A stretch of 64,000 nucleotides of DNA from Lactobacillales bacterium (GCA_015059545.1 SVAG01000006.1:723-64722); one strand, 5' to 3'. Positions 7,280-45,688 are shown, counted from the stretch's first letter. Notes: a model not told the origin generated them from the sequence alone. Numbers and translations are program-made.

Positions 7280-8146
7280 ATGAAAATTAGTAATGAATGG
7301 ATTGATTATAAAATAATAGATGCTGGAAATAAAGAAAAATTAGAAACATGGAAAAATGTTACTTTAAGAAGACCAGATCCTCAAGCTTTATGGCCAATAG
7401 ATTTTGATAATAAGTGGAAAAATATTGATGCTTTTTATCATAGAAGTAATAAAGGTGGAGGTAGTTGGGAATTTAAAAATAAATTACCTGAATATTGGAC
7501 AATAAATTATAAAGAATTAACATTTAAAGTAAGTCCTACTAATTTTAAACATACAGGTTTATTTCCAGAACAAGCAGCAAATTGGGATTATATGATAGAT
7601 AAAATTAAAAATTCAAATAGAAAAATAAATGTGCTTAATCTATTTGCATATACAGGTGCAGCTACTATGGCATGCTCTTATGCAGGAGCAGATGTTGTTC
7701 ACGTTGATTCAGCACGCGGTATGGTTGAATGGGCAAAGGAAAATATGAAATTATCTCATTTAGAAAATAATAAAATTAGATTTATAGTAGATGATTGTTT
7801 AAAATTTGTTTTAAGAGAAAAAAGAAGAGGAAATAAATATGATGCTATTATAATGGATCCACCTTCTTTTGGAAGAGGACCTAGTGGTGAAGTATGGAAA
7901 TTTGAAGATAAAATAATTGAACTTATAGAAGCATGTACGGATATTTTAAGTGATAAACCTTTATTCTTTCAAGTAAATTCATATACAACAGGATTTTCTA
8001 AAACAGTACTTGAAAATGTACTTAAAACTACATTATTAAAAAAATATAAAAGTGGAAGAGTTGAATGTGATGAAATAGGTCTTCCAATTGAAAATAGTGA
8101 TCTTGTTTTACCATGTGGAATATATGGTAGATGGGAAAGTAAATAA
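7280..8146 (+). CDS. Class I SAM-dependent methyltransferase, RlmI/YbaJ-like
   Basis: LNLFAYTGAATMA (motif I-like) and IIMDPPSFGRG (DPPxF motif IV). It occupies the ybaJ position between rpsI and cwlD, as in Bacillus. Confidence 0.6.
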   Translation: MKISNEWIDYKIIDAGNKEKLETWKNVTLRRPDPQALWPIDFDNKWKNIDAFYHRSNKGGGSWEFKNKLPEYWTINYKELTFKVSPTNFKHTGLFPEQAANWDYMIDKIKNSNRKINVLNLFAYTGAATMACSYAGADVVHVDSARGMVEWAKENMKLSHLENNKIRFIVDDCLKFVLREKRRGNKYDAIIMDPPSFGRGPSGEVWKFEDKIIELIEACTDILSDKPLFFQVNSYTTGFSKTVLENVLKTTLLKKYKSGRVECDEIGLPIENSDLVLPCGIYGRWESK

Positions 8147-8177
8147 TATTAAAACATATATTTTATTAGGTGATAAA

Positions 8178-8837
8178 ATGCTTAAATATAAAATATATGT
8201 TTTTTTATTTTTTATAATAGGGGCTCTTAGTATAAATATAGCTTATGCTAGTAACAATAATTTAGAATTGTTTGGTAAAGTAATATATTTAGATGCTGGA
8301 CATGGAGGAGTTGATTCAGGAGCTACTTATAAAAATATAAAAGAAAAAGATATTAATTTAGAAATATGTTTGAAATTAGAAGAAGAATTAACTAAAAGAG
8401 GAGCAATTGTATATCAAACAAGATATGGTGATTATGATTTATCTCTTCCAAATACTATTAATAGAAAAAGAAGTGATTTATCAAGAAGAAGTAATGTTAT
8501 AAACAGAGCTAATCCTGATTTATTTATATCAATTCATTTAAATGCAGAATCAACTGGTATTTGGAGAGGACCTCAAGTATTTTATAATGACAATAATGAA
8601 GATAATGAAATTATTGCTAAATTATTTCAAAAAGAATTAAATAAATCATTAAAGGGTAATAGAGATTATAAAAAAGATAATGGTTTATATTTACAAAAAA
8701 GAGTAAAAGTACCAGGTGTATTAATAGAAGTAGGTTTTTTAAGTAATAATAATGATAGATATTTACTTAAAAATAAAGAATATCAAACTAAAGTATCTAG
8801 AATTATTACTAATAGTATAATCTATTATTTTAAATAG
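8178..8837 (+). CDS. cwlD: Germination-specific N-acetylmuramoyl-L-alanine amidase CwlD (Amidase_3)
   Basis: LDAGHGGVDSGA amidase_3 motif, an N-terminal TM helix, about 220 aa, and the conserved rpsI-(ybaJ)-cwlD synteny. The ORF-track start at 8088 is an upstream extension. AGGTGA precedes 8178. Confidence 0.75.
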   Translation: MLKYKIYVFLFFIIGALSINIAYASNNNLELFGKVIYLDAGHGGVDSGATYKNIKEKDINLEICLKLEEELTKRGAIVYQTRYGDYDLSLPNTINRKRSDLSRRSNVINRANPDLFISIHLNAESTGIWRGPQVFYNDNNEDNEIIAKLFQKELNKSLKGNRDYKKDNGLYLQKRVKVPGVLIEVGFLSNNNDRYLLKNKEYQTKVSRIITNSIIYYFK

Positions 8838-8903: not shown

Positions 8904-9830
8904 ATGAATAAGATATTCAAAACTCTTGATCAACAAATTGAAATATTAAAATCAAGAAACCTTATTATAAATGATGAAGAAAGTACTAAAGATATATTAC
9001 TTAGAGAAAACTATTTCTTTATAAATGGATATCGTCATATGTTTTTAGATAGTGAAAGAAGTAGAAATTTTTTAGAAGGAACAACATTTGAAGAATTATA
9101 TGCTACATTTTTATTCGATAGAGATGTAAGAAATATAATGTTTAAACATTTACTTATAGTTGAAAATAATTTCAAATCGATTATAAGTTATCAATTATCT
9201 AAAAAATATGGGTTTAAAGAAAAAGATTACTTGGATCCAAAAAACTTTACACAAGATAGTTTAAAATCAAGACATGTTCATGATATTTTAAATAAAATGA
9301 GAAGACAAATTAGAGTTAATGGTAGACAGCATACTGCAACTCTTCACTATTTAAGTAATTATGGATATATTCCTATGTGGATCTTAGTAAAAGTTTTATC
9401 ATTTGGAATAATTGCAGAATTATATGACATTTTAAAATATGAAGATCAAATGACTATTGCAGATTTATATCATTTAGATCCAGATACATTATCAACATAT
9501 CTTCATTTACTTGCAAATTTTAGAAATCTATGTGCTCATGAAGATATTTTATACGATCATAGAACACAAAAAGAAATACCAGATAATAAATATCATTATT
9601 TATTAGATATTGAAATGAAAGATGATCATTATATATATGGAAAAAATGATTTATTTGCAGTAGTAATTATGTTAAAAGAATTATTAACTGAACAAGAATT
9701 TAATGAATTTATTTCAGAATTAGGATATGAAATAGATTTGTTAGACGGAAAAATTAATGTAATTCCAACTAATATAATTTTAAATTGTATTGGTTTTCCA
9801 AATAATTGGCGAGATATAAATAAAGTATAG
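8904..9830 (+). CDS. Abi-family abortive-infection protein, Abi_2/AbiD-AbiF-like
   Basis: N-terminal LDQQIEILKSRNLIINDEE..LLRENYFFINGY is characteristic of Abi_2 (PF07751). 308 aa. Confidence 0.6.
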   Translation: MNKIFKTLDQQIEILKSRNLIINDEESTKDILLRENYFFINGYRHMFLDSERSRNFLEGTTFEELYATFLFDRDVRNIMFKHLLIVENNFKSIISYQLSKKYGFKEKDYLDPKNFTQDSLKSRHVHDILNKMRRQIRVNGRQHTATLHYLSNYGYIPMWILVKVLSFGIIAELYDILKYEDQMTIADLYHLDPDTLSTYLHLLANFRNLCAHEDILYDHRTQKEIPDNKYHYLLDIEMKDDHYIYGKNDLFAVVIMLKELLTEQEFNEFISELGYEIDLLDGKINVIPTNIILNCIGFPNNWRDINKV

Positions 9831-9838
9831 GAGGATAC

Positions 9839-10930
9839 ATGAAAAATAAATTAAATTATTTGATAGGTATTATTATTTCGTTATTTGTAGGATGTATGTG
9901 TACATTGATAGTTTTAAATAATTTTAATTTATTAGGTAGTAATAAAAAAGAAATAATAGAAAAAACCATAAATGAAGTTAACGTAACTGAAACAGATACA
10001 CTTAAAAATTCTATTGATAAAGTTTATGATGCTGTTGTAGTTATACAAGGATATGAGAATGGTAAATTAAGTAGTACAGGTACAGGTTTTTATTATAAAA
10101 AAGATTCTAAAAGAGGTTATATAATAACTAATCATCATGTTATAGAAGATAGCGATTTAATTAAAGTAACAAATACTTCTAATGTTGAAAGTGAAGCTAC
10201 CTTGCTTGGAAGTGATGAATATTTAGATATAGCTATATTGTCTGTTGATGCAAAGGATGTTATTAAAGTAGCTAAATTAGGTGATACTTCTAAAGTTAAT
10301 GTTGGTGATACTGTATTTACAGTAGGATCTCCTTTAGGTATTAAATATATGGGAACAGTAACAAAAGGAATTTTATCTGGTAAAAATAGACAAGTAACAG
10401 TTAGTGTTTCTAGTAATAAATTTATTATGGATGTCTTACAAACAGATGCAGCTATAAACCCTGGTAATAGTGGAGGACCTCTTTTAAACATTAATGGTGA
10501 AGTTATAGGAGTTACATCTTTAAAATTAGTACAAGATGAAATAGAAGGAATGGGTTTTGCTTTACCAATTGAATCGGTAAAAAATTCATTAGAAAGTTTA
10601 GAAAATGGTAAAGAAATTAACAGACCTGTATTCGGAGTTCAATTGCTAGATGTAGAAAATAAGTCTATGCTTAGAAGATATGGTATAGAGTTAAGTGATA
10701 AAATAAATAACGGAGCAATTATAATTAAAATAGAAAAAAATACATCTGCTTCTGAATCAGAATTAAAAGTTGGTGACATTATAGTTAAAATTAATGATGA
10801 TAAAGTAAAAGATTCTGCACATTTTAGATATTGTTTATATAAATATAGTATTGGAGATACAATTAAAGTAACTTACAATAGAAATGGTAAAGAAAATACT
10901 ATAAGTGTAAAATTAACTGATAAATCTTAA
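9839..10930 (+). CDS. htrA: HtrA/DegP-family trypsin-like serine protease with a PDZ domain
   Basis: N-terminal TM helix, an ITNHHV His region, DAAINPGNSGGPLLN catalytic Ser, and a C-terminal PDZ-like region. Confidence 0.85.
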   Translation: MKNKLNYLIGIIISLFVGCMCTLIVLNNFNLLGSNKKEIIEKTINEVNVTETDTLKNSIDKVYDAVVVIQGYENGKLSSTGTGFYYKKDSKRGYIITNHHVIEDSDLIKVTNTSNVESEATLLGSDEYLDIAILSVDAKDVIKVAKLGDTSKVNVGDTVFTVGSPLGIKYMGTVTKGILSGKNRQVTVSVSSNKFIMDVLQTDAAINPGNSGGPLLNINGEVIGVTSLKLVQDEIEGMGFALPIESVKNSLESLENGKEINRPVFGVQLLDVENKSMLRRYGIELSDKINNGAIIIKIEKNTSASESELKVGDIIVKINDDKVKDSAHFRYCLYKYSIGDTIKVTYNRNGKENTISVKLTDKS

Positions 10931-10957
10931 AAGGAATTTTTAATTCCTTTTTTTATA
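10930..10957 (+). terminator. Rho-independent terminator
   Basis: aaaggaatt-ttta-aattccttt hairpin followed by a T-run. Confidence 0.75.
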
Positions 10958-11152
10958 TTCCACAATATAAAATATGTATATATAATTAATTATTACAGAA
11001 AATAAATATTATAATAATATTTTAAATTTTATAAATTATATTTGATAAAAATGTCTTAAAATGTAAAATTAAATGTAAATTAAATTAATTTTGATTGACT
11101 AAATAAAAATACATATGATATAATCGTATTAATGATAGGAGGTTTATACAAT

Positions 11153-11665
11153 ATGGAAAAGAAAAAGAATTTTGTAATCGGTACTTTACTTGCTGCAATC
11201 GTTTTAATGTCAGTAGGTTACGCAGCATTAGCTCAAGTATTAACTATTAACGGTACTGCTAACATTAGTGCTGATTGGGATGTTGAAATCACAGGAATTA
11301 CAGAAGGTACTTTAACAGGAGCAACTACACAAACTGTTACTTCAGATGCTACTTCTGCAACATTCAATGTTGATTTAGCTTATCCAGGTGCAACTGCTAC
11401 TTACGAAATAGATATTGAAAACAAAGGAACAATCGATGCTGTATTAGAAAGTATTACAGGTGTAGATGCTGCAAACACTGCACTTCCAACTGAAGTTCAA
11501 TATACAGTAACAGGAGTTGCTGAAGGAGATACTTTAGATGCTAAAGCAACTACAAAAGCAATTGTTACAGTTACTTGGGTAGCTAGCGCTGACAATACTG
11601 ATACTGTTCCAACAACAACATCAAAAACTGCAACAATTAACTTAAATTATGTTCAAAATACATAA
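11153..11665 (+). CDS. Secreted TasA/camelysin-like beta-rich protein (paralog 1) with a putative SipW-type signal
   Basis: MEKKKNFVIGTLLAAIVLMSVGYAALA|QVLTINGTANI, with Ala-x-Ala before Gln. The body is T/V/A-rich and ends ..ATINLNYVQNT. AGGAGG RBS 10 nt upstream. The ORF-track start at 11132 is an extension. Confidence 0.6.
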   Translation: MEKKKNFVIGTLLAAIVLMSVGYAALAQVLTINGTANISADWDVEITGITEGTLTGATTQTVTSDATSATFNVDLAYPGATATYEIDIENKGTIDAVLESITGVDAANTALPTEVQYTVTGVAEGDTLDAKATTKAIVTVTWVASADNTDTVPTTTSKTATINLNYVQNT

Positions 11666-11670
11666 TAAAA

Positions 11671-11699
11671 AATAAGGGACAGTAATGTCCTTATTTTTG
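11671..11699 (+). terminator. Rho-independent terminator
   Basis: aagggaca-gtaa-tgtcctt hairpin followed by a T-run. Confidence 0.7.
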
Positions 11700-11713
11700 T
11701 TTGGAGGTAAAAG

Positions 11714-12874
11714 ATGAGAAGACGAAGAAGAAGAAAAGAATTAAGTTTAACTAAAATAATTGTTCTTTTTGTTGTATGTACTTTAACTTTTAGTGTTGGA
11801 TATTCACTTTTATCTCAACAATTATCAGTAGAAGGTACAGTAAACCTTTTGTATGAAAAAGAACTAACTTGTAAGGAATATGTAACGGATGAGTTAAAAT
11901 TAACTTATGATAATAAAATGTTATGGCATAATGCAGGTTTAAATTATATGCAAATTGATATAACATTAACTAATTTAACACAAGAAGAAATGACTGACTG
12001 GAAAGTAATGATAAAGTTTATTAGTGATATTGAAATATCGGGTTCTTGGGCAGGTAATTATACAGAAAGTGATAATAAAGTTACAATAACAGGATTAGAT
12101 TGGAATAAAACATTAGCACCTGGTGGACAAACTACTTTTGGATTTCAAGTAAGTACACCTGATGAAGAAATTCATTTAAGCTCAATTTATCTTAATGGTG
12201 ATTTAGCAATACCTGGAGAATCATGTAGTAATGTTTCGGATGGAGACAACACAGGCGGAGATAACACAGGTGGAGATAACACAGGCGGAGACAACACAGG
12301 TGGAGATAACACAGGCGGAGACAACACAGGCGGAGACAACACAGGTGGAGATAACACAGGTGGAGATAACACAGGTGGAGATAATACAGGCGGAGATAAC
12401 ACAGGTGGAGATAACACAGGTGGAGATAATACAGGCGGAGATAACACAGGCGGAGATAACACAGGCGGAGACAACACAGGCGGAGATAACACAGGTGGAG
12501 ATAACACAGGTGGAGATAACACAGGTGGAGATAACACAGGTGGAGGAACATTTACTCCAGAAATAACATCTTCAAATGTAGATGTAAAAGTTACGAATAC
12601 AACTTCATGGGGAACTGAAGGGAATTATACTTATCAATATGATATTACTGTTACAAATAATTCGGATGTCAATATAGATGGATGGAGTTTTCAATTTGAG
12701 ATTCCTGATGGTGCTTCTATGGGAGATTATTGGCAATGTGAATATATAAATGCGGATGGAGTTGTTACAATATTATCCAATACAAATACTGCAAAATTAG
12801 AAGTTGGACAATCTGCTCAAATAGGATTCCACATAAAGGTTCCAACAAACACTTATGTACTTAAAGTAAGATAG
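11714..12874 (+). CDS. Secreted protein with the same SVGY..LSQ signal motif, two CBM2-like beta-sandwich domains and a (GGDNT)x~20 linker
   Basis: [35 protein letters not shown]. The first domain has ...[19 protein letters not shown], as in CBM2. The second domain has W..GW.FQFE..W...[10 protein letters not shown]. Confidence 0.65.
12240..12545 (+). repeat. Array of about 20 copies of a 15-bp repeat, GGAGA(C/T)AACACAGG(C/T), encoding (GGDNT)n
   Basis: Direct reading of the sequence. Two unit variants alternate irregularly. The array is in frame, a multiple of 3. Confidence 0.95.
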
Positions 12875-12883
12875 GAGTTAATT

Positions 12884-14068
12884 ATGACAAAAATTAGTTT
12901 AAGAACAATATTAATATATTTAATTGCAATTCTTTATACTGTATTTGTTTCAATATTATTTATTGATGATATTGTTTCAAGTTACAATTTATTGATAAAT
13001 CCTATCTTTTGGATAGCTTTATTTGGTTTATCATTATATTTATTTAAAGATAGTAAAACTCGAATAAAATTAAAAAAAGATAAGGTTCAAACTATATTTA
13101 TAATAATCCTTATGTACTTGATTTTCTATTTTTTATCAGGGTTATTCTTTGGATACTCTAGAAGCCCATATGCCCATTCAATAATTGGGATAATCAAAAA
13201 TTTATGGTCATTTGTAATAATAATATTTTTTCAAGAATATGTTAGACATATATTGGCAAATAATTGTTCTAAAAGAAAACTTTTCTATGTATTAACAACT
13301 ATACTATTTATATTAATTGAAATAAATTTTTATAATTTTGAAAACAATTTTGTATCAGGAGAGTCAGGTTTTAAATATATCAGTTCAATTTTATTACCAA
13401 TAATAGTTAGAAATATATTATTTACTTATTTAACACTTGAATGTGGTTTTGAGGCTGTATTAGCATATAGAATGCCAATTATGTTTGCTAATATAATATT
13501 ACCAATATTTCCTGATTTAAACTGGTTTATTATAGCTTTATATGAATTAGTTTTACCATTTGTATGTTTTATTGTTATAAATTATATGCATACAAAAAAA
13601 CAAGAAAGAATATCAAGAAGAAGAATAAGAAAGCAAAATCCAATTAAAAATGTACCATTTATATTAGTATTATTCTTATTTGTTGGGTTTGTTGCTGGTT
13701 TCTTTAAATATATGCCTATTGCAGTTATGTCTAATAGTATGTCTAATGTAATAAATAGGGGAGATATGGTTGTAGTAGAAAAATTAAGTAAAAAAGAAGT
13801 TAAAAATTTGAAGAAACAAGATATTATTGAATATAATTTAGATGGAGATGTTATTATCCATAGAATTATAGAAGTTCAAAAGCAAAAGGATGGATCTGTT
13901 AGATTTATAACTATGGGTGATAATAATACAGCTCCAGATAATAAACCTGTAAAACAAGATCAGGTTATGGGAAAAGTAAAATTTAAAGTTTCTTATATAG
14001 GATATCCAGTTGTGTATTTAAATGACTTCTTCCAAAAAACTAAACCAGATGTTGAAATGGGAAAATAA
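12884..14068 (+). CDS. sipW: Fusion protein of an N-terminal polytopic membrane domain (about 8 TM, 290 aa) and a C-terminal SipW/Sec11-type (archaeal-type) signal peptidase I domain
   Basis: The C-terminal domain has AVMSNSMSNVINRGDMVVVEK (SxSMxP..GD box), VIIHRII (His box) and FITMGDNNTAPD (GDNN box), as in TIGR02228. The preceding 290 aa are multi-pass hydrophobic. Confidence 0.7.
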   Translation: MTKISLRTILIYLIAILYTVFVSILFIDDIVSSYNLLINPIFWIALFGLSLYLFKDSKTRIKLKKDKVQTIFIIILMYLIFYFLSGLFFGYSRSPYAHSIIGIIKNLWSFVIIIFFQEYVRHILANNCSKRKLFYVLTTILFILIEINFYNFENNFVSGESGFKYISSILLPIIVRNILFTYLTLECGFEAVLAYRMPIMFANIILPIFPDLNWFIIALYELVLPFVCFIVINYMHTKKQERISRRRIRKQNPIKNVPFILVLFLFVGFVAGFFKYMPIAVMSNSMSNVINRGDMVVVEKLSKKEVKNLKKQDIIEYNLDGDVIIHRIIEVQKQKDGSVRFITMGDNNTAPDNKPVKQDQVMGKVKFKVSYIGYPVVYLNDFFQKTKPDVEMGK

Positions 14069-14075
14069 ATATGTA

Positions 14076-14102
14076 AAATGCAGTGTAAACTGCATTTTTT
14101 TT
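14076..14102 (+). terminator. Rho-independent terminator
   Basis: aaatgcag-tgtaaac-ctgcattt hairpin followed by a T8 run. Confidence 0.75.
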
Positions 14103-14159
14103 GGTTGTATCTAATATATTTGATGTGATATACTAATAACAGAATAGGAGAGTTTAGAT

Positions 14160-14672
14160 ATGACAGATAAAAAAAGAAATATACTTATAGTAGCTTTATT
14201 TGTAGCAATAGTGGCAATGTCTGTTGGTTATGCAGCATTAGCACAAGTTTTAAATATTAATGGTACAGCAAATATAGCGGCAGAATGGAATGTAGAAATA
14301 ACTGATATTCAAGTTAAAGAACAAAACGGTGCAACTGATAGAGTTAATCCATCATATACAAGTAAAACAGCAAGTTTTGATGTAAATTTAGCTTATCCAG
14401 GAGCAAGTTCTACATATATAGTAACAGTAAAAAATAGTGGAACTATAAATGCAAAATTATCTGAAATTACAGGTATAGATGCAGCAAATTTATCTGATCC
14501 AACTGCAGTACAATATACTGTTACAAAAGTGGACACTAATGATGAATTAAATGTAGGTGAAACTAAAACATTTGAAGTAAAAGTTGAATGGTTAAGTACA
14601 GATGATGGTACAAATATAACAGCTTCAAATAAAACAGCAACAATTAACTTTAATTATGTACAAAATCAATAA
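14160..14672 (+). CDS. Secreted TasA/camelysin-like beta-rich protein (paralog 2) with a putative SipW-type signal
   Basis: MTDKKRNILIVALFVAIVAMSVGYAALA|QVLNINGTANI and ...ATINFNYVQNQ C-terminus. It aligns end to end with the 11153..11665 product. Confidence 0.6.
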   Translation: MTDKKRNILIVALFVAIVAMSVGYAALAQVLNINGTANIAAEWNVEITDIQVKEQNGATDRVNPSYTSKTASFDVNLAYPGASSTYIVTVKNSGTINAKLSEITGIDAANLSDPTAVQYTVTKVDTNDELNVGETKTFEVKVEWLSTDDGTNITASNKTATINFNYVQNQ

Positions 14673-14701
14673 AAGAATAAGAGGAGATAGTAGGTGATTA
14701 T

Positions 14702-15766
14702 ATGAGTAACAATATGACTTTTCCAAAAAGAAAAGTTCTTAAAAAATGGGCTCGTTATTCTTTATTAGGAATAATAATAACATTTTTTATATCTTCTATT
14801 GTTATTATATTAACTAGTTTTAATAAACCTGATAAAAACGAAGACGTATTATTATACTCATATAATGTAAATCAGGATTTAGATTATAAAGTAAATTTAT
14901 ATGACAATAGTTATATAGAATCTAGTTATTTAGGGAAAGATGATACTTATATTTCAGATTTAATAAAAGAAATACAAATAGATTATAAGTATAAATATGC
15001 TGGTTCAAAAGTTGTTCCATTAAATTATACTTATGATGTAGTAGCGACTATAAATGGTGAATATAGTCTAGAAGAAGAAGATTCTAAAGTATGGACTAAA
15101 GAATATAAATTGGTTCAAAATAGAAATGGTAAAATTACAGACAAGACATCTATAAATATAACTGAACCAGTAAGTTTAAATTTTAGTTATTATAATAATG
15201 TAGTATCAAATTTTAGAAAAGAACTACGTTTACCAATAAAAGCCTCATTAATAGTAGTATTTAAGATAAACGTTACAGGTGAAGTATCAGGACAAAAAAT
15301 AAATGATACAAAACAAATGACTTTATCATTTCCTTTAAATCAGCAAGCATTTAAAATTACTGAAAAATATGAGGAAAACTTTAATAATAGTATAAAGCCA
15401 CCTGTAGAAAAGAAAGAAAAAGTTAATTCTAGAAAATTAATATGTGGAATTATATTATTATCAACAGCTATATTTATATTTATATTATTCTTTAGAGAAA
15501 TATTTAATATTCCAAGAAAAAATAAATATACAATTCAATTAAATAAAATATTAAAAGAATATGGAGATATCATAATCGAAGTAATAAATCCAGTAAGTGA
15601 ATTTGAAATGGATATTGTAGAAGTCAAAAACTTCAATGAAATGATAGACTTAGAAGAAGAACTTAGGGTTCCAATAATGTTCTATGAAACAATAGAATAT
15701 TTAGAAGGAGAATTTACATTAGTTCATAATAATATATTATATAAATTTGTTTTAAGAAATGAATAG
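14702..15766 (+). CDS. Bitopic membrane protein of unknown function (354 aa), a possible fibre-assembly accessory
   Basis: TM helix at residues 20-40, a central beta-rich extracytoplasmic region, a second TM at about 240-260, and an acidic C-terminal cytoplasmic domain. Its position in the locus is the basis for the accessory suggestion. Confidence 0.45.
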   Translation: MSNNMTFPKRKVLKKWARYSLLGIIITFFISSIVIILTSFNKPDKNEDVLLYSYNVNQDLDYKVNLYDNSYIESSYLGKDDTYISDLIKEIQIDYKYKYAGSKVVPLNYTYDVVATINGEYSLEEEDSKVWTKEYKLVQNRNGKITDKTSINITEPVSLNFSYYNNVVSNFRKELRLPIKASLIVVFKINVTGEVSGQKINDTKQMTLSFPLNQQAFKITEKYEENFNNSIKPPVEKKEKVNSRKLICGIILLSTAIFIFILFFREIFNIPRKNKYTIQLNKILKEYGDIIIEVINPVSEFEMDIVEVKNFNEMIDLEEELRVPIMFYETIEYLEGEFTLVHNNILYKFVLRNE

Positions 15767-15788
15767 GAAAACTATTCATTTTTTATGT
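15761..15788 (+). terminator. Rho-independent terminator
   Basis: aatgaatag-gaaaa-ctattcatt hairpin followed by a T-run. Confidence 0.7.
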
Positions 15789-15831
15789 ACAAAATTAGGC
15801 TTATTTCATAGAATAATCTAGGAGGTAAATT

Positions 15832-17187
15832 ATGGCAAAGATAGTTATTGATGCTGGACATGGAGGAGATGATCCTGGTGCTAGTGGAAATGGTATTATA
15901 GAAAAAGATTTAGTTTTAGACATTTCTAATTATATGTATGATAGATTTAGAGAATTAGGTATACCTGTTGCTTTAACTAGATCTACAGATATTACATTAA
16001 ATCCAACAGATAGAACAAATAAAATTCTAAATCAATTTGGTAATACAAGTGATGTAATTGTTATTTCCAATCATATAAATGCAGGTGGAGGAGATGGTGC
16101 TGAAGTAATATATGCGCTTAGAGATAATAATAATTTATCTAATTTAATATTAGAAAATTTTGAAGAAGTAGGTCAAAATGTAAGAAAAGCATATCAGAGA
16201 AGATTACCTAGTGATACTTCAAAAGATTATTATTTTATACATAGAAATACAGGAAATACGGAACCTATTATAGTAGAATATGGATTTTTAGATAGCACAG
16301 GTGATGATGTAAATCAATTAAAAAATAATTGGAGAAATTTAGCAGAAGCTGTTGTTAAATCAGTAGCAGAGTATACAAATACATCATATGATAAAGGGTT
16401 AGGAACTACTTATACAGTAAAAAGTGGAGATACATTATGGAGTATAGCTAAAAAATTTAATATGACTGTAAATGAATTAAAAGAAATAAATAATTTGACA
16501 AGTAATACACTTAGAATAGGCCAAATATTGAAGATAAATGAGCAACTTCCATCATCAGATGAAAATACATATATAGTAAAAAGAGGGGATACATTATATG
16601 GAATTGCTAATAAATATGGTGTTACAGTTAATGAAATAAAGAATTTAAATAATTTAATGAATAGTTCACTTAGTATAGGTCAAATTCTTAAAATTCCAGT
16701 AAATGAAGACAATATGGAAGATTATTTAATTTACACAGTAAAAAATGGAGATACATTATACGGAATAGCAAGAACATATAATATAACACCAAGTGAAATT
16801 ATTTCTTATAATAATTTAAATAGTACGGTATTAAATATAGGACAAAATTTAAAAATACCATTTAAAAATATTTCTGACGATGAACAAAATATAGAATATA
16901 TTATTTATACAGTAAAAAGCGGAGACTCTTTATATAGTATAGCTAGAAAATACAATACATCTGTTAATGAGATAATGAATTTAAATAATTTAACAAGTAA
17001 TTTATTAAGCATAGGTCAAACTTTAAAAATTCCTGTAGAAGAATCAAAAGATATAGTTTATACAGTAAAGAGTGGAGATAATCTTTATAGTATAGCAAGA
17101 AAATATAATACAACTGTTGCTAATATAAAAAATAAAAATAATTTAACAACTAATTTACTTAGTATAGGACAAAAATTAATAATATAA
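15832..17187 (+). CDS. N-acetylmuramoyl-L-alanine amidase (Amidase_3) with five C-terminal LysM repeats
   Basis: IDAGHGGDDPGA motif, then 5x YTVKxGDTLYxIAxKYN..Nx(L/I)..IGQxLKIP LysM units. Confidence 0.85.
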   Translation: MAKIVIDAGHGGDDPGASGNGIIEKDLVLDISNYMYDRFRELGIPVALTRSTDITLNPTDRTNKILNQFGNTSDVIVISNHINAGGGDGAEVIYALRDNNNLSNLILENFEEVGQNVRKAYQRRLPSDTSKDYYFIHRNTGNTEPIIVEYGFLDSTGDDVNQLKNNWRNLAEAVVKSVAEYTNTSYDKGLGTTYTVKSGDTLWSIAKKFNMTVNELKEINNLTSNTLRIGQILKINEQLPSSDENTYIVKRGDTLYGIANKYGVTVNEIKNLNNLMNSSLSIGQILKIPVNEDNMEDYLIYTVKNGDTLYGIARTYNITPSEIISYNNLNSTVLNIGQNLKIPFKNISDDEQNIEYIIYTVKSGDSLYSIARKYNTSVNEIMNLNNLTSNLLSIGQTLKIPVEESKDIVYTVKSGDNLYSIARKYNTTVANIKNKNNLTTNLLSIGQKLII

Positions 17188-17216
17188 AAGCACTTAATCA
17201 AGTGCTTTTTATTTTT
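17186..17216. terminator. Bidirectional terminator between convergent genes
   Basis: aaaagcactt-aatca-agtgctttt hairpin with A- and T-runs on both sides. Confidence 0.7.
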
Positions 17217-20118
17217 CTAATTTATATATATAATGTCTTGCTGTTGTGTTTTCAACTTTTTTTGAAAAACCTAAAAATATTTTATTATTAATAATTTTTA
17301 TACCTTCTGGCTCCCATATTTCTTTATTAGTAGGATTACCTAATTTATAACGATATGCAATCTTTTCGCCTTGAAGCGAATAAATTGAAAGGAATGGTCC
17401 TATGCTGTAATTATTGTTAGTAGTAGGGTTTCCTTCTAGTATATATATATAATTTCCATTAACTGTAAACCCTTGCCAACTTATATTGTTAGTATTATCT
17501 GGTAATGAAAATTTAAAAGCTATTTTAGGTGAACTTGAATTTATGAAATCATCTAAATTATATACTTTATAAGTTGTATCATGCCTTATAACTAAAATTC
17601 GATTATTATTATCAATGGCTGCTTGTCCTTGATAATTGTAAGTTTTAACATTTAATTGATCTTTAGTTATTGTTTTACAATTATTCCCATTTGGACTAAA
17701 TAAATTATTTGTTAATTTAATTCTACATATTTTTGTTGATTTATATTCTCCAGGTGCATCTTTTTTTTCTATTCCATCACAACCAACCCATATAAATGTA
17801 TTGTTATTAGTTTTTTCAAAATCAATATTACCTAAGTGTCCAAATTTAGGAAGATTTATACATGAAACTATTGAGTTATTATTTGCATCTATTTTATTAA
17901 TATAAGCATCTCTTTGTGTAATGTATAAGTAGTTATCATCCTTAATCCATGATTGCATGTTTCTAGCTTTATTTGATAATGTTAACTTTGATTTATATAC
18001 TTTTTTAGTTGTTGTAGGATTAATATAATTTCCTGCAACTTTAACGCTTACTTTTGTTTTTGCTTTGAAATTTCCATCTTTAGTTTTAGCTGTAATAGTA
18101 GCTGTACCTATTTTTTTAGCTGTTATAATACCTTTTGCATCAACAGAAACAATTTCTGGGTCATTACTAGACCAAATAATTGTTTTATTAGTAGCATCAT
18201 TAGGTTTAATGGTAGCAATAATTTTTTTAGTATTAGTTTTATTAATAGTAATATTACTAGTATTTAATTTAATTCCAGTAACAGGTGTTTTAACAGTTAT
18301 AGTAGATATTATTTTATAATTATTTTCTTTAGTGGCTGCTGTTATATTTGTTATACCGTCACTAATAGCTTTTATATTACCATTTTGATCAACAGTAGCA
18401 ACTTTCGGATTACTACTAGACCAAATAATTGTTTTATTAGTGGCATCACTAGGTTTAATAGTAGCAGTAATTTTTGAATTTTGACCTTTATTTAAATTAA
18501 TCTTCTTTTTATCAATTTGTATTCCAGTAACAGGTACATTTACTATAACTCTACAAGATGTTTTAAAGTTTCCGTCTTTAGAAGAAATATAAATATATGT
18601 TATTCCTCCAGAAACAGCAGTAACTTTTCCGTTTTGATCGACAGTAGCGATTTTTGGATTACTACTAGACCAAGTTACACTTTTATTTGATGCATATTCA
18701 GGATATATATCATAAGTTAAATTAAAACTCTTATTTTTATTTAGTGTTAAACTTGTTTTATTTAATTTAATATTTGTAACTAAATTTTTTACTGTAACAT
18801 TTATGGATGTTTTAAATTTATTATCTTCTGATTTTACTATTATAGTTGTGGAACCATTAGAAATACCTTTAATATTACCATTTTGATCAACAGTAGCGAT
18901 TTTTTGATTGCTACTAGACCAAATAATTGTTTTATTAGTAGCATCACTTGGGGTAAAAATGACATTAACTTTTTTTATCTCATTTTTTCCTAATTGTAGG
19001 TTAGTAACATTTGTTTTAATTCCATTTAATGGGACATAAACATTAACTTTGCAAGTTGCTTTTGTATTTCCATCTTTAGAAGAAGCAGTTATAATTGAAT
19101 TACCACTAGAAATAGCAGTAACTTTTCCGTTTTGATCAACAGTAGCGATTTTAGAATTACTACTAGACCAAATAATATCTTTATTTCCAGCATCATTAGG
19201 TTTTATAGTATAAGTTAAATTAAATGTATTATTCTTTTTTAAAGAAATATTTGTTTTATTTAAAGTTATATTAGTTACTAGTTTATTAACTATTATTTTA
19301 ATAGAAGTTTTAAATTTATTATCTTTAGTTTTAACTGTAATAGTTGTAGTTCCATTAGAAATAGCAGTAACTTTTCCGTTTTGATCAACTGTAGCGATTT
19401 TAGAATTACTACTGGACCAATAAAAATCTTTATTGTCTGCATCATTAGGTGTTATAATCAAGTTTAATTTTTTTGTAGAATCATTATTCATATATATATT
19501 TTTTTCTTTAAATTTAATCTCTTTTATATGTGATGTAACTTTTATATTACATTTATCTTTATAGCCACCATCTTTAGAAGTAACAGTGATAATTGTATTT
19601 CCTTTTTGTAATGCAGTAACTTTTCCATTTTGATCAACAGTAGCAACTTTTGGGTTACTACTAGACCAGTAAAAATCTTTATTAGTGGCGTTATTAGGTT
19701 CAATATTAACTTTTAAATTAATAGAATCTGATTTATTTAAAGTTTTATTATTATAATTTAGTTTTACGTTTTTAATATATATATATTGTTTTTCATTTGT
19801 TTCTTTTTCCCATTTTGCTGTTAAAGTAGTGTTTTTTGTTATTTGAATATCATTCTCTATTTTGTTATTATTTTCATCATACCATCCTAAAAATATGTAG
19901 TTTTCTTTTTGAGGAGATATTAAATTTTTTAAATTACTATTACAATCTATTTTTTTATTAGGAATATTAAAATCACTATTACTATTAAAGACTATTAAAC
20001 ATTCATTTTTAGTTGAAGAAAATTTATTTGTTGTAAAAATAAGTATTCCAGTAAATAAAAATACAAATATAAGAATCCTATAATCTATTATTTTTAAAAT
20101 TTTCTTCATAAATATCAT
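17209..20118 (-). CDS. Large surface protein with about 8 tandem bacterial Ig-like (Big_2) domains and a C-terminal non-Ig domain of about 280 aa
   Basis: N-terminal TM/signal. Repeated ..ATNKDFYWSSSNPKVATVDQNGKVTA...TIITV.. Big_2 units. The C-terminal domain is rich in N/Y/W. Confidence 0.75.
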   Translation of the reverse strand: MIFMKKILKIIDYRILIFVFLFTGILIFTTNKFSSTKNECLIVFNSNSDFNIPNKKIDCNSNLKNLISPQKENYIFLGWYDENNNKIENDIQITKNTTLTAKWEKETNEKQYIYIKNVKLNYNNKTLNKSDSINLKVNIEPNNATNKDFYWSSSNPKVATVDQNGKVTALQKGNTIITVTSKDGGYKDKCNIKVTSHIKEIKFKEKNIYMNNDSTKKLNLIITPNDADNKDFYWSSSNSKIATVDQNGKVTAISNGTTTITVKTKDNKFKTSIKIIVNKLVTNITLNKTNISLKKNNTFNLTYTIKPNDAGNKDIIWSSSNSKIATVDQNGKVTAISSGNSIITASSKDGNTKATCKVNVYVPLNGIKTNVTNLQLGKNEIKKVNVIFTPSDATNKTIIWSSSNQKIATVDQNGNIKGISNGSTTIIVKSEDNKFKTSINVTVKNLVTNIKLNKTSLTLNKNKSFNLTYDIYPEYASNKSVTWSSSNPKIATVDQNGKVTAVSGGITYIYISSKDGNFKTSCRVIVNVPVTGIQIDKKKINLNKGQNSKITATIKPSDATNKTIIWSSSNPKVATVDQNGNIKAISDGITNITAATKENNYKIISTITVKTPVTGIKLNTSNITINKTNTKKIIATIKPNDATNKTIIWSSNDPEIVSVDAKGIITAKKIGTATITAKTKDGNFKAKTKVSVKVAGNYINPTTTKKVYKSKLTLSNKARNMQSWIKDDNYLYITQRDAYINKIDANNNSIVSCINLPKFGHLGNIDFEKTNNNTFIWVGCDGIEKKDAPGEYKSTKICRIKLTNNLFSPNGNNCKTITKDQLNVKTYNYQGQAAIDNNNRILVIRHDTTYKVYNLDDFINSSSPKIAFKFSLPDNTNNISWQGFTVNGNYIYILEGNPTTNNNYSIGPFLSIYSLQGEKIAYRYKLGNPTNKEIWEPEGIKIINNKIFLGFSKKVENTTARHYIYKLEK

Positions 20119-29728: not shown

Positions 29729-30448
29729 ATGATTAAATTCGTAGTTTATGATGACGAAGAAGTATTTAGAAGTAATATTGTAAGTTGTATAAATAAAGTT
29801 ATAGATAATAATAAAATTGATTATAAGATTGAGGAGTTTTCTAAGTATAATAGTAGAATGCAAAAGGTTATCGATGAAGATTGTCCTAAAATTTATATTT
29901 TAGATATTGAAATACCAAATGGATTATCTGGTATTGATGTTGCTAGAAAAATTAGGGTAGATGATTGGAATAGTATAATTATTTTAGTTACATCTCATGT
30001 AGATATGGGTTACGATGCTTTGAAAGCACAAATTATGTTATTGGACTTCATATCAAAATATAATGATTGTAATAGAAATATTGAAAAAACAGTCAAGAAA
30101 GCATTATTGAAAATTGATAATAAGAAAGTTTTAATATTTGAATCTAATGATATTACTTATAAAGTATATACTGATGATATAGTTTATATTGTAAAAGATA
30201 CAATTGATAGAAAATGTATTATTAAGACAGTTTATAATGAGATTAGTATTAATGAAAATATTAGTACTTTATTTGATATGCTTGATAATAGATTTTTTAT
30301 GACACATAGAAGTTGTATAGTAAATACTGAAAAGATTGATAGAATTGATTGGAGAAATAATATAGTTTATTTTAAGAATGGATTCAATACAGATTATTTA
30401 TCAAGAGATAGAAAGAAGGAGTTTAAGGCGTATGTTAGAGGTTGTTAG
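29729..30448 (+). CDS. LytTR-family response regulator, AgrA-like
   Basis: REC domain (MIKFVVYDDEE...DIEIPNGLSGID) and a C-terminal LytTR DNA-binding domain. 239 aa. Confidence 0.8.
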   Translation: MIKFVVYDDEEVFRSNIVSCINKVIDNNKIDYKIEEFSKYNSRMQKVIDEDCPKIYILDIEIPNGLSGIDVARKIRVDDWNSIIILVTSHVDMGYDALKAQIMLLDFISKYNDCNRNIEKTVKKALLKIDNKKVLIFESNDITYKVYTDDIVYIVKDTIDRKCIIKTVYNEISINENISTLFDMLDNRFFMTHRSCIVNTEKIDRIDWRNNIVYFKNGFNTDYLSRDRKKEFKAYVRGC

Positions 30449-31736: not shown

Positions 31737-31770
31737 GATTTAAATTAATAAATCTTATTTTTATTTTTAT
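31726..31770. terminator. Bidirectional terminator between the convergent HK and agrD genes
   Basis: aagattta-aattaa-taaatctt hairpin flanked by an A-run upstream and a T-run downstream. Confidence 0.6.
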
Positions 31771-31889
31771 TTTTCAATCATACTTTTTGGCATTTCTGGT
31801 TCATCTAAAATAAATCTTGGTGAACAAACATTTGTCATGCTTAAACTTCCAATAGTTTTAAATAATTTTGAAAAAAAACTTCTGAACAT
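31767..31889 (-). CDS. agrD: AgrD-like autoinducing-peptide precursor (40 aa); not in the supplied ORF track
   Basis: Minus-strand ORF MFRSFFSKLFKTIGSLSMTNVCSPRFILDEPEMPKSMIEK with a GGAGGA RBS 7 nt upstream. It has an amphipathic leader, a single Cys core, and a C-terminal DEPEMPKSM that matches the DEVEVPKEL / EEPKSL AgrD recognition tail. It lies immediately downstream of agrB. Confidence 0.7.
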   Translation of the reverse strand: MFRSFFSKLFKTIGSLSMTNVCSPRFILDEPEMPKSMIEK

Positions 31890-31934
31890 ACTTTAATCCT
31901 CCTTTTTGTTCTTTTATAATTAAACGGGCCCTGT

Positions 31935-37344: not shown

Positions 37345-37360
37345 TTAGGTAGTTTTTTTA
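37328..37360. terminator. Bidirectional terminator
   Basis: tactacctaatt-aaat-aattaggtag palindrome followed by a T7 run. It overlaps both stop codons. Confidence 0.7.
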
Positions 37361-45669: not shown

Positions 45670-45688
45670 AATAGAGGAGGTTGTGGTA

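What the first reader, a model, noticed from the sequence alone, without database searches (positions are those of the whole stretch)
11132..15766. Atypical TapA-SipW-TasA-like fibre/matrix locus with three cognate substrates and a fused signal peptidase
Five co-oriented genes, each bounded by its own terminator, encode the following. Two paralogous beta-rich secreted proteins of about 170 aa (11153-11665 and 14160-14672) are the first and fourth genes. A larger secreted protein with CBM2-like domains (11714-12874) is the second gene. A SipW/Sec11-type signal peptidase (12884-14068) sits in the middle. A bitopic membrane protein (14702-15766) is last. In Bacillus, the tapA-sipW-tasA operon uses a dedicated archaeal-type signal peptidase to process an accessory protein (TapA) and a fibre subunit (TasA). 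This is established knowledge. This locus has the same logic, accessory, then peptidase, then subunit. Every component is divergent, however. The signal regions are not the canonical TasA type. The peptidase is a fusion. One substrate carries carbohydrate-binding-like domains. The locus sits among spore and cell-wall genes (htrA upstream, an amidase-LysM gene downstream). It looks like a previously uncharacterised secreted-fibre or cell-surface assembly module.
Basis: partly seen in the sequence, partly recalled or inferred. Interest (0 to 1): 0.85.

Follow-up and report, generated by a model that had tools for sequence, protein, structure and literature searches.

The report
AbpX-type TasA-like fibre gene cluster
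This is a five-gene cluster from an uncultured, spore-forming gut bacterium that most likely builds a secreted protein fibre of the TasA/AbpX kind, with its own signal peptidase and a carbohydrate-binding cap protein; the type was first described in 2025-2026, so this is a new member with some new twists, not a new kind.

Summary
The five co-oriented genes exist as described. Two details are wrong. Only two genes are followed by a terminator, and the last protein has two membrane helices, not one.

The two 170-aa paralogues (54% identical) have no Pfam or NCBIfam family. Profiles of their family hit only archaeal AbpX among solved structures (E 5e-4). They align to the AbpX family with 95.9% HHalign probability, and that alignment includes the signal peptide and cleavage site.

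The "fused" peptidase has a Sec11/SipW-type catalytic domain behind an eight-helix membrane domain. It matches the peptidase next to Pyrodictium abyssi abpX over both domains (98.8%). By fold, the membrane domain resembles CPBP/Rce1-type proteins but lacks their catalytic histidines.

The last gene is a DUF5305 protein, the proposed peptidase accessory of AbpX and Tafi loci. The CBM2 protein carries the same N-terminal cleavage/donor-strand motif as the subunits.

In 22 related genomes, DUF5305 follows the peptidase in 22 and a subunit gene is adjacent in 19.

New here are the gut Bacilli clade, the CBM2 cap, the missing calcium-binding residue in the donor strand, and the CPBP-like fold. Polymerisation itself is inferred, not shown.

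The parts
11095..11124 (+). Promoter-like site TTGACT-18 nt-TATAAT with an upstream TG (extended -10), in front of gene 1
   Evidence: It is the best sigma-70-type match in the region, 11 of 12 positions. The sequence was read. Its function is inferred.
11153..11665 (+). Gene 1: AbpX-like fibre subunit, 170 aa, probably the major subunit. It has a signal-anchor helix at 8-26, a predicted cleavage site after G-Y-A (residue 25), and a mature N-terminus ALAQVLTINGTANI, the proposed donor strand.
   Evidence: The A1 profile matches it at E 8e-69. Orthologues occupy the same position upstream of the CBM2 gene in 19 of 22 loci. The mature protein has a pI of 4.05. The start is set by the RBS.
11675..11692 (+). 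Terminator-like hairpin after gene 1, possibly a partial terminator that raises the subunit-to-accessory ratio
   Evidence: The hairpin has a 7-bp stem followed by a T-run. The attenuation role is inferred.
11714..12874 (+). Gene 2: donor-strand-bearing cap or anchor protein, 386 aa. Its layout is the same N-terminal motif (SVGYS|[14 protein letters not shown]), CBM2-like domain 1 (79-163), a GDNTG x20 linker (about 176-279), then CBM2/CBM49-like domain 2 (291-372).
   Evidence: CBM_2 scores 2.3e-24 and CBM49 7.7e-11. The A1 profile hits only its N-terminus, at 1e-7. Orthologues with the same layout but different linkers are found in 12 of 22 loci.
12241..12545 (+). 15-nt tandem repeat, 20.3 copies, encoding the GDNTG linker of gene 2
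   Evidence: TRF reports 92% matches. Otherwise identical alleles from other samples carry 20, 18 or 17 units.
12884..14068 (+). Gene 3: dedicated signal peptidase I, 394 aa. It has an eight-helix CPBP-like membrane domain (1-240), a basic cytoplasmic loop, an anchor helix (253-274) and an extracytoplasmic Sec11/SipW-type catalytic domain (275-385).
   Evidence: - TIGR02228 scores 5.5e-24, and the family profile hits human SEC11A at 4e-18.
- S285, H326, D346 and D352 are invariant in 59 relatives.
- The AlphaFold2 model has pLDDT 87 and pTM 0.80.
- HHalign gives 98.8% over 310 columns to the peptidase next to P. abyssi abpX.
14075..14098 (+). Terminator-like hairpin after gene 3
   Evidence: The hairpin has a 10-bp stem followed by T8.
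14160..14672 (+). Gene 4: second AbpX-like subunit, 170 aa, probably a minor or base subunit. It is 54% identical to gene 1 and has the same cleavage/donor-strand motif.
   Evidence: - Identity to gene 1 is.
- The A1 profile matches it at 1e-74.
- The AlphaFold2 model has pLDDT 82.6: an eight-strand beta-sandwich, with residues 28-44 at low confidence.
- A gene at this position exists only in the closest relatives, L006 and L007.
14702..15766 (+). Gene 5: DUF5305 protein, 354 aa. It has helix 20-38, an outside domain 39-245, helix 246-264 and a cytoplasmic tail 265-354. It is the proposed accessory subunit of the peptidase.
   Evidence: PF17231 scores 4.4e-22, 79 bits against a cut-off of 29. 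A DUF5305 gene lies downstream of the peptidase in 22 of 22 related genomes. The accessory role is proposed in bioRxiv 10.64898/2026.01.04.697558 and PMC11821415.

Best explanation
The locus is an AbpX-type member of the TasA superfamily of secreted protein fibres.

**Proposed mechanism (inferred)**
1. Genes 1 and 4 encode small acidic beta-sandwich subunits. They are exported by Sec and held in the membrane by a signal-anchor helix.
2. The dedicated peptidase (gene 3), probably working with the DUF5305 protein (gene 5), cuts after the conserved G-Y-A.
3. This frees an amphipathic N-terminal strand (A-L-A-Q-V-L-x-I-N-G-T-A). The strand inserts into the open groove of a neighbouring subunit (donor-strand complementation), giving a chaperone-free fibre.
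4. Gene 2 has the same cleavable N-terminal strand, followed by two complete CBM2-like domains on a long flexible linker. It can therefore only cap the groove end of a fibre.
5. In that position it acts either as a wall anchor and nucleator, like TapA, or as a distal glycan-binding adhesin.
6. The eight-helix N-terminal domain of the peptidase has a CPBP/Rce1-like fold without the catalytic histidines. It most likely docks the substrates' signal-anchor helices.

**Shown here:** the homologies, the domain architectures, the catalytic residues, the shared motif and the conserved gene cassette.

**Inferred:** the cleavage position, polymerisation, and the roles of genes 2 and 5 and of the CPBP-like domain.
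For: **Subunits**
- The family profile hits only AbpX among all PDB sequences: 9sj2 at E 5e-4 and 9rhp at 1e-3.
- HHalign of 76 relatives against the P. abyssi AbpX family gives 95.9%, E 5e-9, over 143 columns. It aligns ...GLTYA|QWSETLSLSATI with ...SVGYA|ALAQVLNINGTANI.
- Only the G-Y-[AS] site fits the -3/-1 rule in all three substrates (sequences).
- Residues after the site are strongly conserved: L6 in 72 of 75, I8 in 64, G10 in 68, T11 in 59.
- In the monomer model this stretch is the low-confidence part, outside the eight-strand sandwich.
- The mature proteins have pI 4.05 and 4.31, like AbpX homologues (preprint section 9).

**Peptidase**
- Matches TIGR02228 and SEC11A, with invariant Ser, His and Asp residues.
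- Gives 98.8% HHalign over both domains to the AbpX-adjacent peptidase.

**DUF5305 protein**
- The Pfam match is well above threshold.

**Cassette conservation in 22 species-level genomes**
- DUF5305 lies downstream in 22 of 22.
- A subunit gene is adjacent in 19 of 22 (one further locus is truncated).
- A CBM2-type protein with the same N-terminal motif is present in 12 of 22.

**Family size and adhesin links**
- The subunit family is large: 703 cluster representatives at E<=1e-30.
- Longer members carry adhesin-type C-terminal domains such as BspA LRR and Flg_new.
Against: - No polymerisation, cleavage or binding data exist for this clade.
- The AbpX donor-strand hallmarks are missing. [quoted passage not shown] This locus has Leu and Gln. 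In the family only 18 of 75 are aromatic and 2 of 75 acidic.
- There is no TasA/Peptidase_M73 match for genes 1 or 4. Only 6 of 76 relatives match it weakly.
- Two related genomes have the peptidase-DUF5305 pair without an adjacent subunit gene.
- The CPBP assignment rests on a predicted structure only. There is no sequence-level match.
Confidence: 0.7

Rival explanations
1. Genes 1, 2 and 4 are ordinary secreted or surface-retained beta-sandwich proteins, such as glycan-binding or wall-associated proteins. They share a specialised signal peptide and a private signal peptidase but do not polymerise.
For: - Subunit relatives give weak sub-threshold hits to generic Ig-like families: DUF11 in 22 of 76, DUF7507 in 19 of 76, CARDB in 12 of 76.
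- The fold searches are generic.
- The calcium-binding donor-strand residue of AbpX is absent.
Against: - The stretch right after the cleavage site is the most conserved part of the family. It is shared with otherwise unrelated partner proteins: the CBM2 proteins and the roughly 275-aa proteins in L022, L023 and L026. This is expected for a donor strand, not for a discarded or passive N-terminus.
- There is specific homology to AbpX and to its peptidase.
Confidence: 0.15
2. The fibre is a sporulation-linked structure, such as a spore appendage or spore-surface matrix, rather than a vegetative biofilm or adhesion fibre.
For: - The organism encodes a GerA-type germinant receptor operon, so it is a spore-former.
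- In several relatives the peptidase-DUF5305 pair sits between spoVIF/der and spoIVA.
- From my own knowledge: TasA was first found as a spore-associated protein.
Against: - Gene 1 is preceded by a near-consensus sigma-A-type extended -10 promoter, not a recognisable sporulation-sigma site.
- In this window the immediate neighbours are htrA and an amidase, not sporulation genes.
- The spoIVA neighbourhood is limited to one sub-branch (L001/L002, L004/L014, L010, L019). L010 and L019 have no adjacent subunit gene, while L014 does.
Confidence: 0.1
3. The locus is a polysaccharide-degradation or cellulosome-like module, in which the CBM2 protein is the functional centre and the small proteins are accessory binding proteins.
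For: Gene 2 has two bona fide CBM_2 matches. The relatives come from herbivore and high-fibre human gut samples (record titles).
Against: - There is no catalytic glycoside-hydrolase, dockerin or cohesin domain in any of the five proteins.
- The CBM2 protein is missing from about 10 of 22 cassettes, whereas the subunit, peptidase and DUF5305 genes persist.
Confidence: 0.03
4. The locus encodes a type IV pilus or a sortase-assembled pilus.
Against: - There is no prepilin G|F-x-x-x-E motif, no LPXTG motif, and no sortase, ATPase or platform protein in the locus.
- The peptidase keeps the full catalytic Ser, His and Asp set. SipA, from my own knowledge, lacks it.
Confidence: 0.02

Closest known systems
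AbpX loci of the TasA superfamily: Pyrodictium abyssi AbpX, PDB 9SJ2/9RHP, and the bacterial loci of Clostridium amylolyticum, Natronincola peptidivorans, Ammonifex, Thermacetogenium, Syntrophothermus and Heliobacterium (bioRxiv 10.64898/2026.01.04.697558)
   Same: - The subunits are small, acidic beta-sandwich proteins homologous to AbpX.
- The position of the signal-peptidase site before an amphipathic strand is the same.
- The locus has major plus minor subunit genes.
- It has a multi-helix signal peptidase I homologous over its full length.
- It has a DUF5305 accessory gene.
- An extra protein shares the donor strand.
   Different: - The clade is sequence-distant: BLAST-level searches do not connect them, and no Pfam or NCBIfam model covers it.
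- The donor strand lacks the aromatic-2 and acidic-4 residues tied to calcium-dependent assembly.
- The partner protein carries CBM2 domains instead of SLH or LPXTG anchors.
- No histidine kinase, c-di-GMP or Spo0A-like genes lie in the cassette.
- The hosts are uncultured gut Bacilli, not Clostridia or thermophiles.
Bacillus subtilis tapA-sipW-tasA operon
   Same: - The logic is the same: accessory protein, dedicated ER/archaeal-type signal peptidase, fibre subunit.
- The accessory protein carries a donor-strand-like N-terminus.
- The shared core motif is PG[AD]...N.G[ST][IL].A.
   Different: - Neither gene 1 nor gene 4 matches Peptidase_M73, TIGR04088 or TapA models.
- The peptidase scores 67 bits against the SipW equivalog's cut-off of 190 and has an extra eight-helix domain.
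- Bacillus has no DUF5305 partner.
Haloarchaeal Tat-fimbriae (Tafi: TafA/E subunits, TafD peptidase, TafG DUF5305) (PMC11821415, PMC12337348)
   Same: - A dedicated signal peptidase is paired with a DUF5305 protein.
- Subunits are 150-200 aa and assemble by strand donation.
- Additional adhesin-like proteins are encoded.
   Different: - Tafi subunits use Tat signals.
- TafD has four helices, with the peptidase domain at the N-terminus.
- Subunit sequences are not detectably similar: no Tafi hit in the PDB profile searches.
CPBP family (Rce1, S. aureus SpdC/LyrA)
   Different: - There is no Pfam match in 59 relatives.
- There is no invariant histidine. The conserved polar set is Y78, N106, E118 and R121, with an E-x-x-R spacing rather than EExxxR.
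- It is fused to a signal peptidase.
Eukaryotic signal peptidase complex (SEC11 with accessory subunits)
   Same: The catalytic domain is most similar to SEC11A/C (E 4e-18). The catalytic unit is surrounded by extra membrane modules. The preprint draws the analogy for DUF5305.
   Different: The accessory modules are not homologous to SPC12, SPC22/23 or SPC25 as far as was tested. The enzyme appears to be dedicated to a small set of substrates.

Membership tests
AbpX clade of the TasA superfamily | Subunit core homologous to AbpX | tested here: met
   hmmsearch of the family profile against the PDB hits only AbpX, at E 5e-4 and 1e-3. HHalign of A4 against the AbpX family gives 95.9%, E 5e-9, over 143 columns.
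AbpX clade of the TasA superfamily | Signal peptidase I site directly followed by an amphipathic N-terminal donor strand | tested here: met
   This was tested at sequence level only. TYA|QWSETLSLSATI aligns with GYA|ALAQVLNINGTANI, and positions 6, 8, 10 and 11 are conserved.
AbpX clade of the TasA superfamily | Aromatic residue at mature position 2 and acidic residue at position 4 (calcium-mediated strand complementation) | tested here: not met
   Genes 1 and 4 have Leu2 and Gln4. In the family, position 2 is L in 51, F in 18 and I in 5, and position 4 is acidic in 2 of 75.
AbpX clade of the TasA superfamily | Low pI (about 4) and acidic composition | tested here: met
   The mature proteins have pI 4.05 and 4.31. 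Asp plus Glu is about 12%, against about 15% reported for AbpX.
AbpX clade of the TasA superfamily | Adjacent dedicated multi-helix signal peptidase I | tested here: met
   I count nine helices, where the preprint reports ten. HHalign gives 98.8% over 310 columns to the P. abyssi abpX-adjacent enzyme.
AbpX clade of the TasA superfamily | DUF5305 accessory gene in the locus | tested here: met
   PF17231 scores 79 bits against a cut-off of 29. The gene is present in 22 of 22 related loci.
AbpX clade of the TasA superfamily | Polymerisation into fibres by donor-strand complementation | not testable with these tools
   The structure tool predicts single chains only and refuses engineered sequences.
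Bacillus TapA-SipW-TasA system | Subunit belongs to TasA/camelysin (Pfam Peptidase_M73) | tested here: not met
   Genes 1 and 4 give no hit at E<=0.1. Six of 76 relatives hit weakly, best 6e-4. HHalign to TasA gives 33%.
Bacillus TapA-SipW-TasA system | SipW-cognate signal peptide (TIGR04088) and TapA (TIGR04087) | tested here: not met
   No NCBIfam hit at E<=0.1 for genes 1, 2 or 4.
Bacillus TapA-SipW-TasA system | Peptidase is a SipW equivalog | tested here: not met
   NF046067 scores 67 bits against a cut-off of 190. The broader TIGR02228 model is met, at 84.8 bits against 51.85.
Tafi (Tat-fimbriae) | Tat signal on subunits; TafD-type peptidase (peptidase domain first, four helices) | tested here: not met
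   Genes 1 and 4 have Lys-rich n-regions without a twin arginine. Gene 2 has RRRRRRK, but its orthologues have Lys-rich n-regions. The peptidase domain order is reversed.
Tafi (Tat-fimbriae) | TafG-like DUF5305 protein | tested here: met
CPBP intramembrane protease family (N-domain of gene 3) | Eight-helix CPBP fold | tested here: met
CPBP intramembrane protease family (N-domain of gene 3) | Catalytic motifs EExxxR, FxxxH, HxxxN/D; Pfam PF02517 match | tested here: not met
   The N-domain has no invariant His in 59 sequences, and only E118-x-x-R121 is conserved. No CPBP family appears among the Pfam hits.
CBM2 (domains of gene 2) | Match to Pfam CBM_2 above the gathering score | tested here: met
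   86.1 bits against a cut-off of 24, in two stretches. The ligand was not tested.

The most novel reading that the evidence does not exclude
Two linked readings remain open.

1. The CPBP-like domain fused to the Sec11-type peptidase, together with DUF5305, forms a dedicated prokaryotic 'signal peptidase complex'. It docks the subunits' signal anchors and couples cleavage directly to donor-strand polymerisation, without the calcium switch of AbpX.
2. With its CBM2 cap, the resulting fibre is a plant-fibre or glycan adhesion organelle. On this reading it is widespread but unrecognised in uncultured gut Bacilli. The family has hundreds to thousands of clusters, some with BspA-LRR or Listeria-Bacteroides-repeat adhesin domains.
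Probability: 0.25. Interest if true: 0.65.

Novelty: new member of a known kind. Interest (0 to 1): 0.45.

Why it matters
- **Reach of the system.** TasA-superfamily fibres are emerging as a cross-domain way to build biofilm matrices and adhesive filaments. This locus shows the AbpX-type system extends into uncultured, low-GC, spore-forming gut Bacilli. The complete system comprises subunits, a multi-helix peptidase, DUF5305 and a strand-bearing partner.
- **Annotation gap.** All parts except the peptidase are annotated as hypothetical. The subunit family is large and has no Pfam or NCBIfam model.
- **Testable leads.** Assembly may not need the calcium-binding donor-strand residue. A carbohydrate-binding cap may link fibres to dietary or host glycans. 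The extra membrane domain of the peptidase has a CPBP-like fold. I did not find that fold described in the AbpX preprint or in a full-text search.

Tried and rejected
- **Single-sequence PDB search with gene 4.** Nothing meaningful.
- **Pfam and NCBIfam on genes 1 and 4.** No family. TIGR04088, TIGR04087 and Peptidase_M73 were all absent.
33% only.
- **Word-indexed homologue search with the AbpX fragment.** It gave four close Pyrodictium relatives only, so bacterial AbpX sequences from the preprint could not be compared directly. The preprint's supplement holds accession numbers but no sequences.
- **Sequence-level test of the CPBP assignment.** No Pfam or PDB sequence hit for the N-domain.
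- **Rfam scan of 10500-17500** for a riboswitch, such as c-di-GMP, upstream of the subunit gene. Nothing was found.
- **Rejected alternatives.** Type IV pilus, sortase pilus, S-layer and cellulosome readings lack their defining domains. A Tat-dependent reading for gene 2's poly-Arg n-region fails because orthologues have Lys-rich n-regions.

Full report
**1. What is in the sequence**

Five co-oriented ORFs lie at 11153-11665 (170 aa), 11714-12874 (386 aa), 12884-14068 (394 aa), 14160-14672 (170 aa) and 14702-15766 (354 aa), in DNA of about 24% G+C. The first and fourth proteins are 54% identical (E 5e-55).

Terminator-like hairpins occur only after gene 1 (11675-11692), after gene 3 (14075-14098) and after the downstream amidase gene (17186-17209). 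Genes 2/3 are 9 nt apart and genes 4/5 are 29 nt apart. The statement that each gene has its own terminator is therefore not confirmed.

A near-consensus sigma-A-type site with an extended -10 (TTGACT-18-TGaTATAAT, 11095-11124) and a GGAGG at 11139-11143 place the start of gene 1 at 11153, not 11132.

The likely transcription units are:
- gene 1, with read-through into genes 2-3;
- genes 4-5, possibly continuing into the amidase gene.

**2. Domain content**

- **Gene 2** has two CBM_2/CBM49 matches (2.3e-24 and 7.7e-11). They flank a 105-aa (GDNTG)x20 linker encoded by a 15-nt tandem repeat at 12241-12545.
- **Gene 3** matches archaeal-type signal peptidase I (TIGR02228, 84.8 bits against a cut-off of 51.85) in residues 259-380. 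It falls below the SipW equivalog cut-off (67 bits against 190). Hydropathy and an AlphaFold2 model (pLDDT 87.2, pTM 0.80) show eight helices, a Lys/Arg-rich loop, a ninth anchor helix (253-274) and then the catalytic domain.
- **Gene 3 catalytic residues.** In 59 relatives S283, S285, M286, H326, R327, G345, D346, N348 and D352 are invariant. This is the Ser-His-Asp set of ER/archaeal-type enzymes. The family profile hits human SEC11A at E 4e-18.
- **Gene 5** is a DUF5305 protein (79 bits against a cut-off of 29) with helices at 20-38 and 246-264. It has two membrane spans, not one.
- **Genes 1 and 4** match no Pfam or NCBIfam family.

**3. What the 170-aa proteins are**

A word-indexed search found 39 relatives, all unnamed and from metagenomes or MAGs labelled Bacilli. 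A full HMMER scan of 1.84 billion cluster representatives with their profile found 10,531 hits at E<=1e-3, 5,423 at <=1e-10 and 703 at <=1e-30. The weak end probably includes generic CARDB/DUF11-like repeats. All but one (P0168) of the best 150 match from about residue 2 to 169, that is, signal peptide included. Many carry C-terminal extensions. In a sample of ten long members these included BspA-type LRR, Listeria-Bacteroides repeat and DUF6273 domains.

Evidence linking the family to AbpX:
- Against all PDB sequences the family profile hits only AbpX of Pyrodictium abyssi, 9sj2 at E 5e-4 and 9rhp at 1e-3. A broader 76-sequence profile gave the same two top hits.
- HHalign of that profile against the four full-length AbpX-family sequences gives 95.9% probability, E 5e-9, over 143 columns.
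- Six of 76 relatives weakly match Peptidase_M73.

Structure searches with the AlphaFold2 model were not discriminating. The model has pLDDT 82.6 and an eight-strand sandwich, with residues 28-44 at low confidence.

I conclude that these proteins belong to the TasA superfamily and are closest to AbpX. They form a sequence-distant clade that has no curated model.

**4. The shared N-terminus**

AbpX is reported to be cleaved after residue 54 (...GLTYA|QWSETLSLSATI). The new N-terminus, W2-I12, is the donor strand. [quoted passage not shown]

The HHalign alignment puts ...SVGYA|ALAQVLNINGTANI of genes 1 and 4 in register with this. Gene 2 has ...SVGYS|[14 protein letters not shown]. The G-Y-[AS] site is the only one that satisfies the -3/-1 small-residue rule in all three proteins.

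In 75 relatives the conservation after the site is as follows:

| Mature position | Residues |
|---|---|
| 2 | L 51, F 18, I 5 |
| 4 | Q 42, T 16, S 8; acidic in only 2 |
| 6 | L 72 |
| 8 | I 64 |
| 10 | G 68 |
| 11 | T 59 |

The amphipathic strand is therefore conserved, but the calcium-binding signature is not. No other ORF in the 64-kb window has the motif or matches the profile.

**5. The peptidase**

HHalign of the 59-sequence alignment against the 380-aa peptidase encoded directly downstream of P. abyssi abpX gives 98.8% over 310 columns. The alignment covers the membrane domain as well as the catalytic domain, and QEYVR aligns with REMVR. This is the 'structurally distinct' multi-helix signal peptidase I that the preprint associates with AbpX. 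The preprint reports ten helices; I count nine.

There is no sequence-level CPBP match. The CPBP histidines are absent. The invariant residues of the membrane domain are Y78, G86, N106, R121, F163, P207, P210 and W214, and E118 is nearly invariant.

I read this as a CPBP-like, probably non-proteolytic domain. Neither the preprint nor a full-text search mentions this fold assignment.

**6. Conservation of the cassette**

A scan of one genome per species returned 22 loci. All are uncultured gut or rumen-type MAGs, labelled Bacilli, Tenericutes, Mycoplasmatota or Clostridia. Two are labelled Muribaculaceae, which may reflect mis-binning.

Searching their ORFs with profiles made here gave:

| Feature | Loci |
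|---|---|
| DUF5305 gene downstream of the peptidase | 22 of 22 |
| Strong AbpX-like subunit gene adjacent, usually directly upstream | 19 of 22 |
| Contig cut at the peptidase; a motif-bearing protein lies downstream | 1 |
| No subunit gene nearby | 2 |
| CBM2-type protein with the same N-terminal motif, between subunit and peptidase | 12 of 22 |

In the CBM2-type proteins the linkers differ between species (PDPDPT, GGES, PDN, PEE). Other loci instead have a protein of about 275 aa with the motif and a different body.

A second subunit gene between the peptidase and DUF5305 occurs only in this window and its closest relatives, L006 and L007.

**7. Mechanism**

Shown here:
- the homologies and domain architectures;
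- the catalytic residues;
- the shared motif;
- the conserved synteny.

Inferred by analogy with AbpX, TasA/TapA and Tafi:
1. Sec export.
2. Retention of the precursor by the signal anchor.
3. Cleavage after G-Y-A by gene 3, assisted by gene 5.
4. Insertion of the freed strand into a neighbour's groove, giving a chaperone-free fibre.
5. Gene 1 as the major subunit. It has its own strong promoter and a terminator that would limit read-through, and it is the orthologue present in every cassette.
6. Gene 4 as a minor or base subunit.
7. Gene 2 as a strand-only cap of the groove end. It would be either a wall anchor and nucleator like TapA, equivalent to the SLH/LPXTG partners in the preprint's bacterial loci, or a distal glycan adhesin.

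I cannot tell anchor from adhesin for gene 2.

The missing acidic residue at position 4 predicts assembly that does not depend on the AbpX-type calcium site.

**8. Context**

The organism is a spore-former. A GerA-type receptor operon lies at 37345-41073. The immediate neighbours are an Abi_2 gene, htrA, two Amidase_3 genes and a large Big_2 surface protein. They are conserved only in close relatives.

In one sub-branch of relatives the peptidase-DUF5305 pair lies between spoVIF/der and spoIVA. A sporulation link is therefore possible but not supported for this window.

No Rfam element lies in the locus.

Public records name all products 'hypothetical protein' except the peptidase. The MAG is labelled Lactobacillales bacterium.

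**9. Comparison and novelty**

The locus passes most tests for an AbpX-type locus:
- subunit homology;
- cleavage site followed by a strand;
- low pI;
- a homologous multi-helix peptidase;
- a DUF5305 gene.

It fails one test, the aromatic-2/acidic-4 signature. It fails the membership tests for TasA proper and for Tafi, while sharing their logic.

AbpX-type loci with these parts were described in January 2026, and the peptidase-DUF5305 pairing in 2023-2025. I therefore file this as a new member of a known kind.

Variant features worth following:
- a large, unmodelled gut-Bacilli clade;
- a CBM2 cap;
- a donor strand without the calcium-binding signature;
- a CPBP-like peptidase domain.

My confidence in the fibre explanation is about 0.7. 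Polymerisation is untested, and the structural searches for the subunit were inconclusive.

Noticed in passing
window 12241-12545; L028-L031: The GDNTG linker repeat of gene 2 has 20 units here and in two other samples. It has 18 and 17 units in two further samples whose protein is otherwise identical. This is either real copy-number polymorphism or assembly collapse.
   Followed up: partly
window 37345-41073 (- strand): A GerA-type spore germinant receptor operon (Spore_permease, GerAC, GerA) is present, so the organism is a spore-former.
   Followed up: no
window 29729-32543: An agr-like quorum-sensing module lies about 14 kb downstream of the fibre locus. It comprises a LytTR response regulator (29729-30448), a GHKL histidine kinase (30378-31736) and AgrB (31935-32543, - strand). 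I looked for no link to the locus.
   Followed up: no
window 8904-9830: An Abi_2 (abortive-infection-like) gene sits between an Amidase_3 gene (8088-8837) and htrA.
   Followed up: no
window 17209-20118 (- strand): A 969-aa surface protein with seven Big_2 domains and a Listeria-Bacteroides repeat converges on the amidase-LysM gene and shares its bidirectional terminator. It lacks the fibre N-terminal motif.
   Followed up: partly
L013 766-4895 and 9817-11295: A mouse-gut MAG has five to six AbpX-like paralogues around the peptidase. Two are 492-aa proteins with the subunit module at the N-terminus.
   Followed up: no
L001, L002, L010, L019, L004/L014: In one sub-branch of relatives the peptidase-DUF5305 pair lies between der/spoVIF and spoIVA. 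In L010 and L019 (and the L001/L002 contigs, same arrangement as L010) no subunit gene lies within 6.5 kb.
   Followed up: partly
proteins P0165-P0280 (relatives of genes 1/4): Many family members are 270-1080 aa long. They have the subunit module at the N-terminus and adhesin-type C-terminal domains (BspA LRR_5, Flg_new, DUF6273).
   Followed up: partly
window 34082-34825 (-), 45659-46570, 48781-50736: The window also holds an MvaI/BcnI-type restriction endonuclease, a KilA-N domain protein and an arylsulfotransferase.
   Followed up: no
window 11003-11043: A 20-nt AT-rich tandem repeat (2 copies) lies in the intergenic region upstream of the gene 1 promoter.
   Followed up: no
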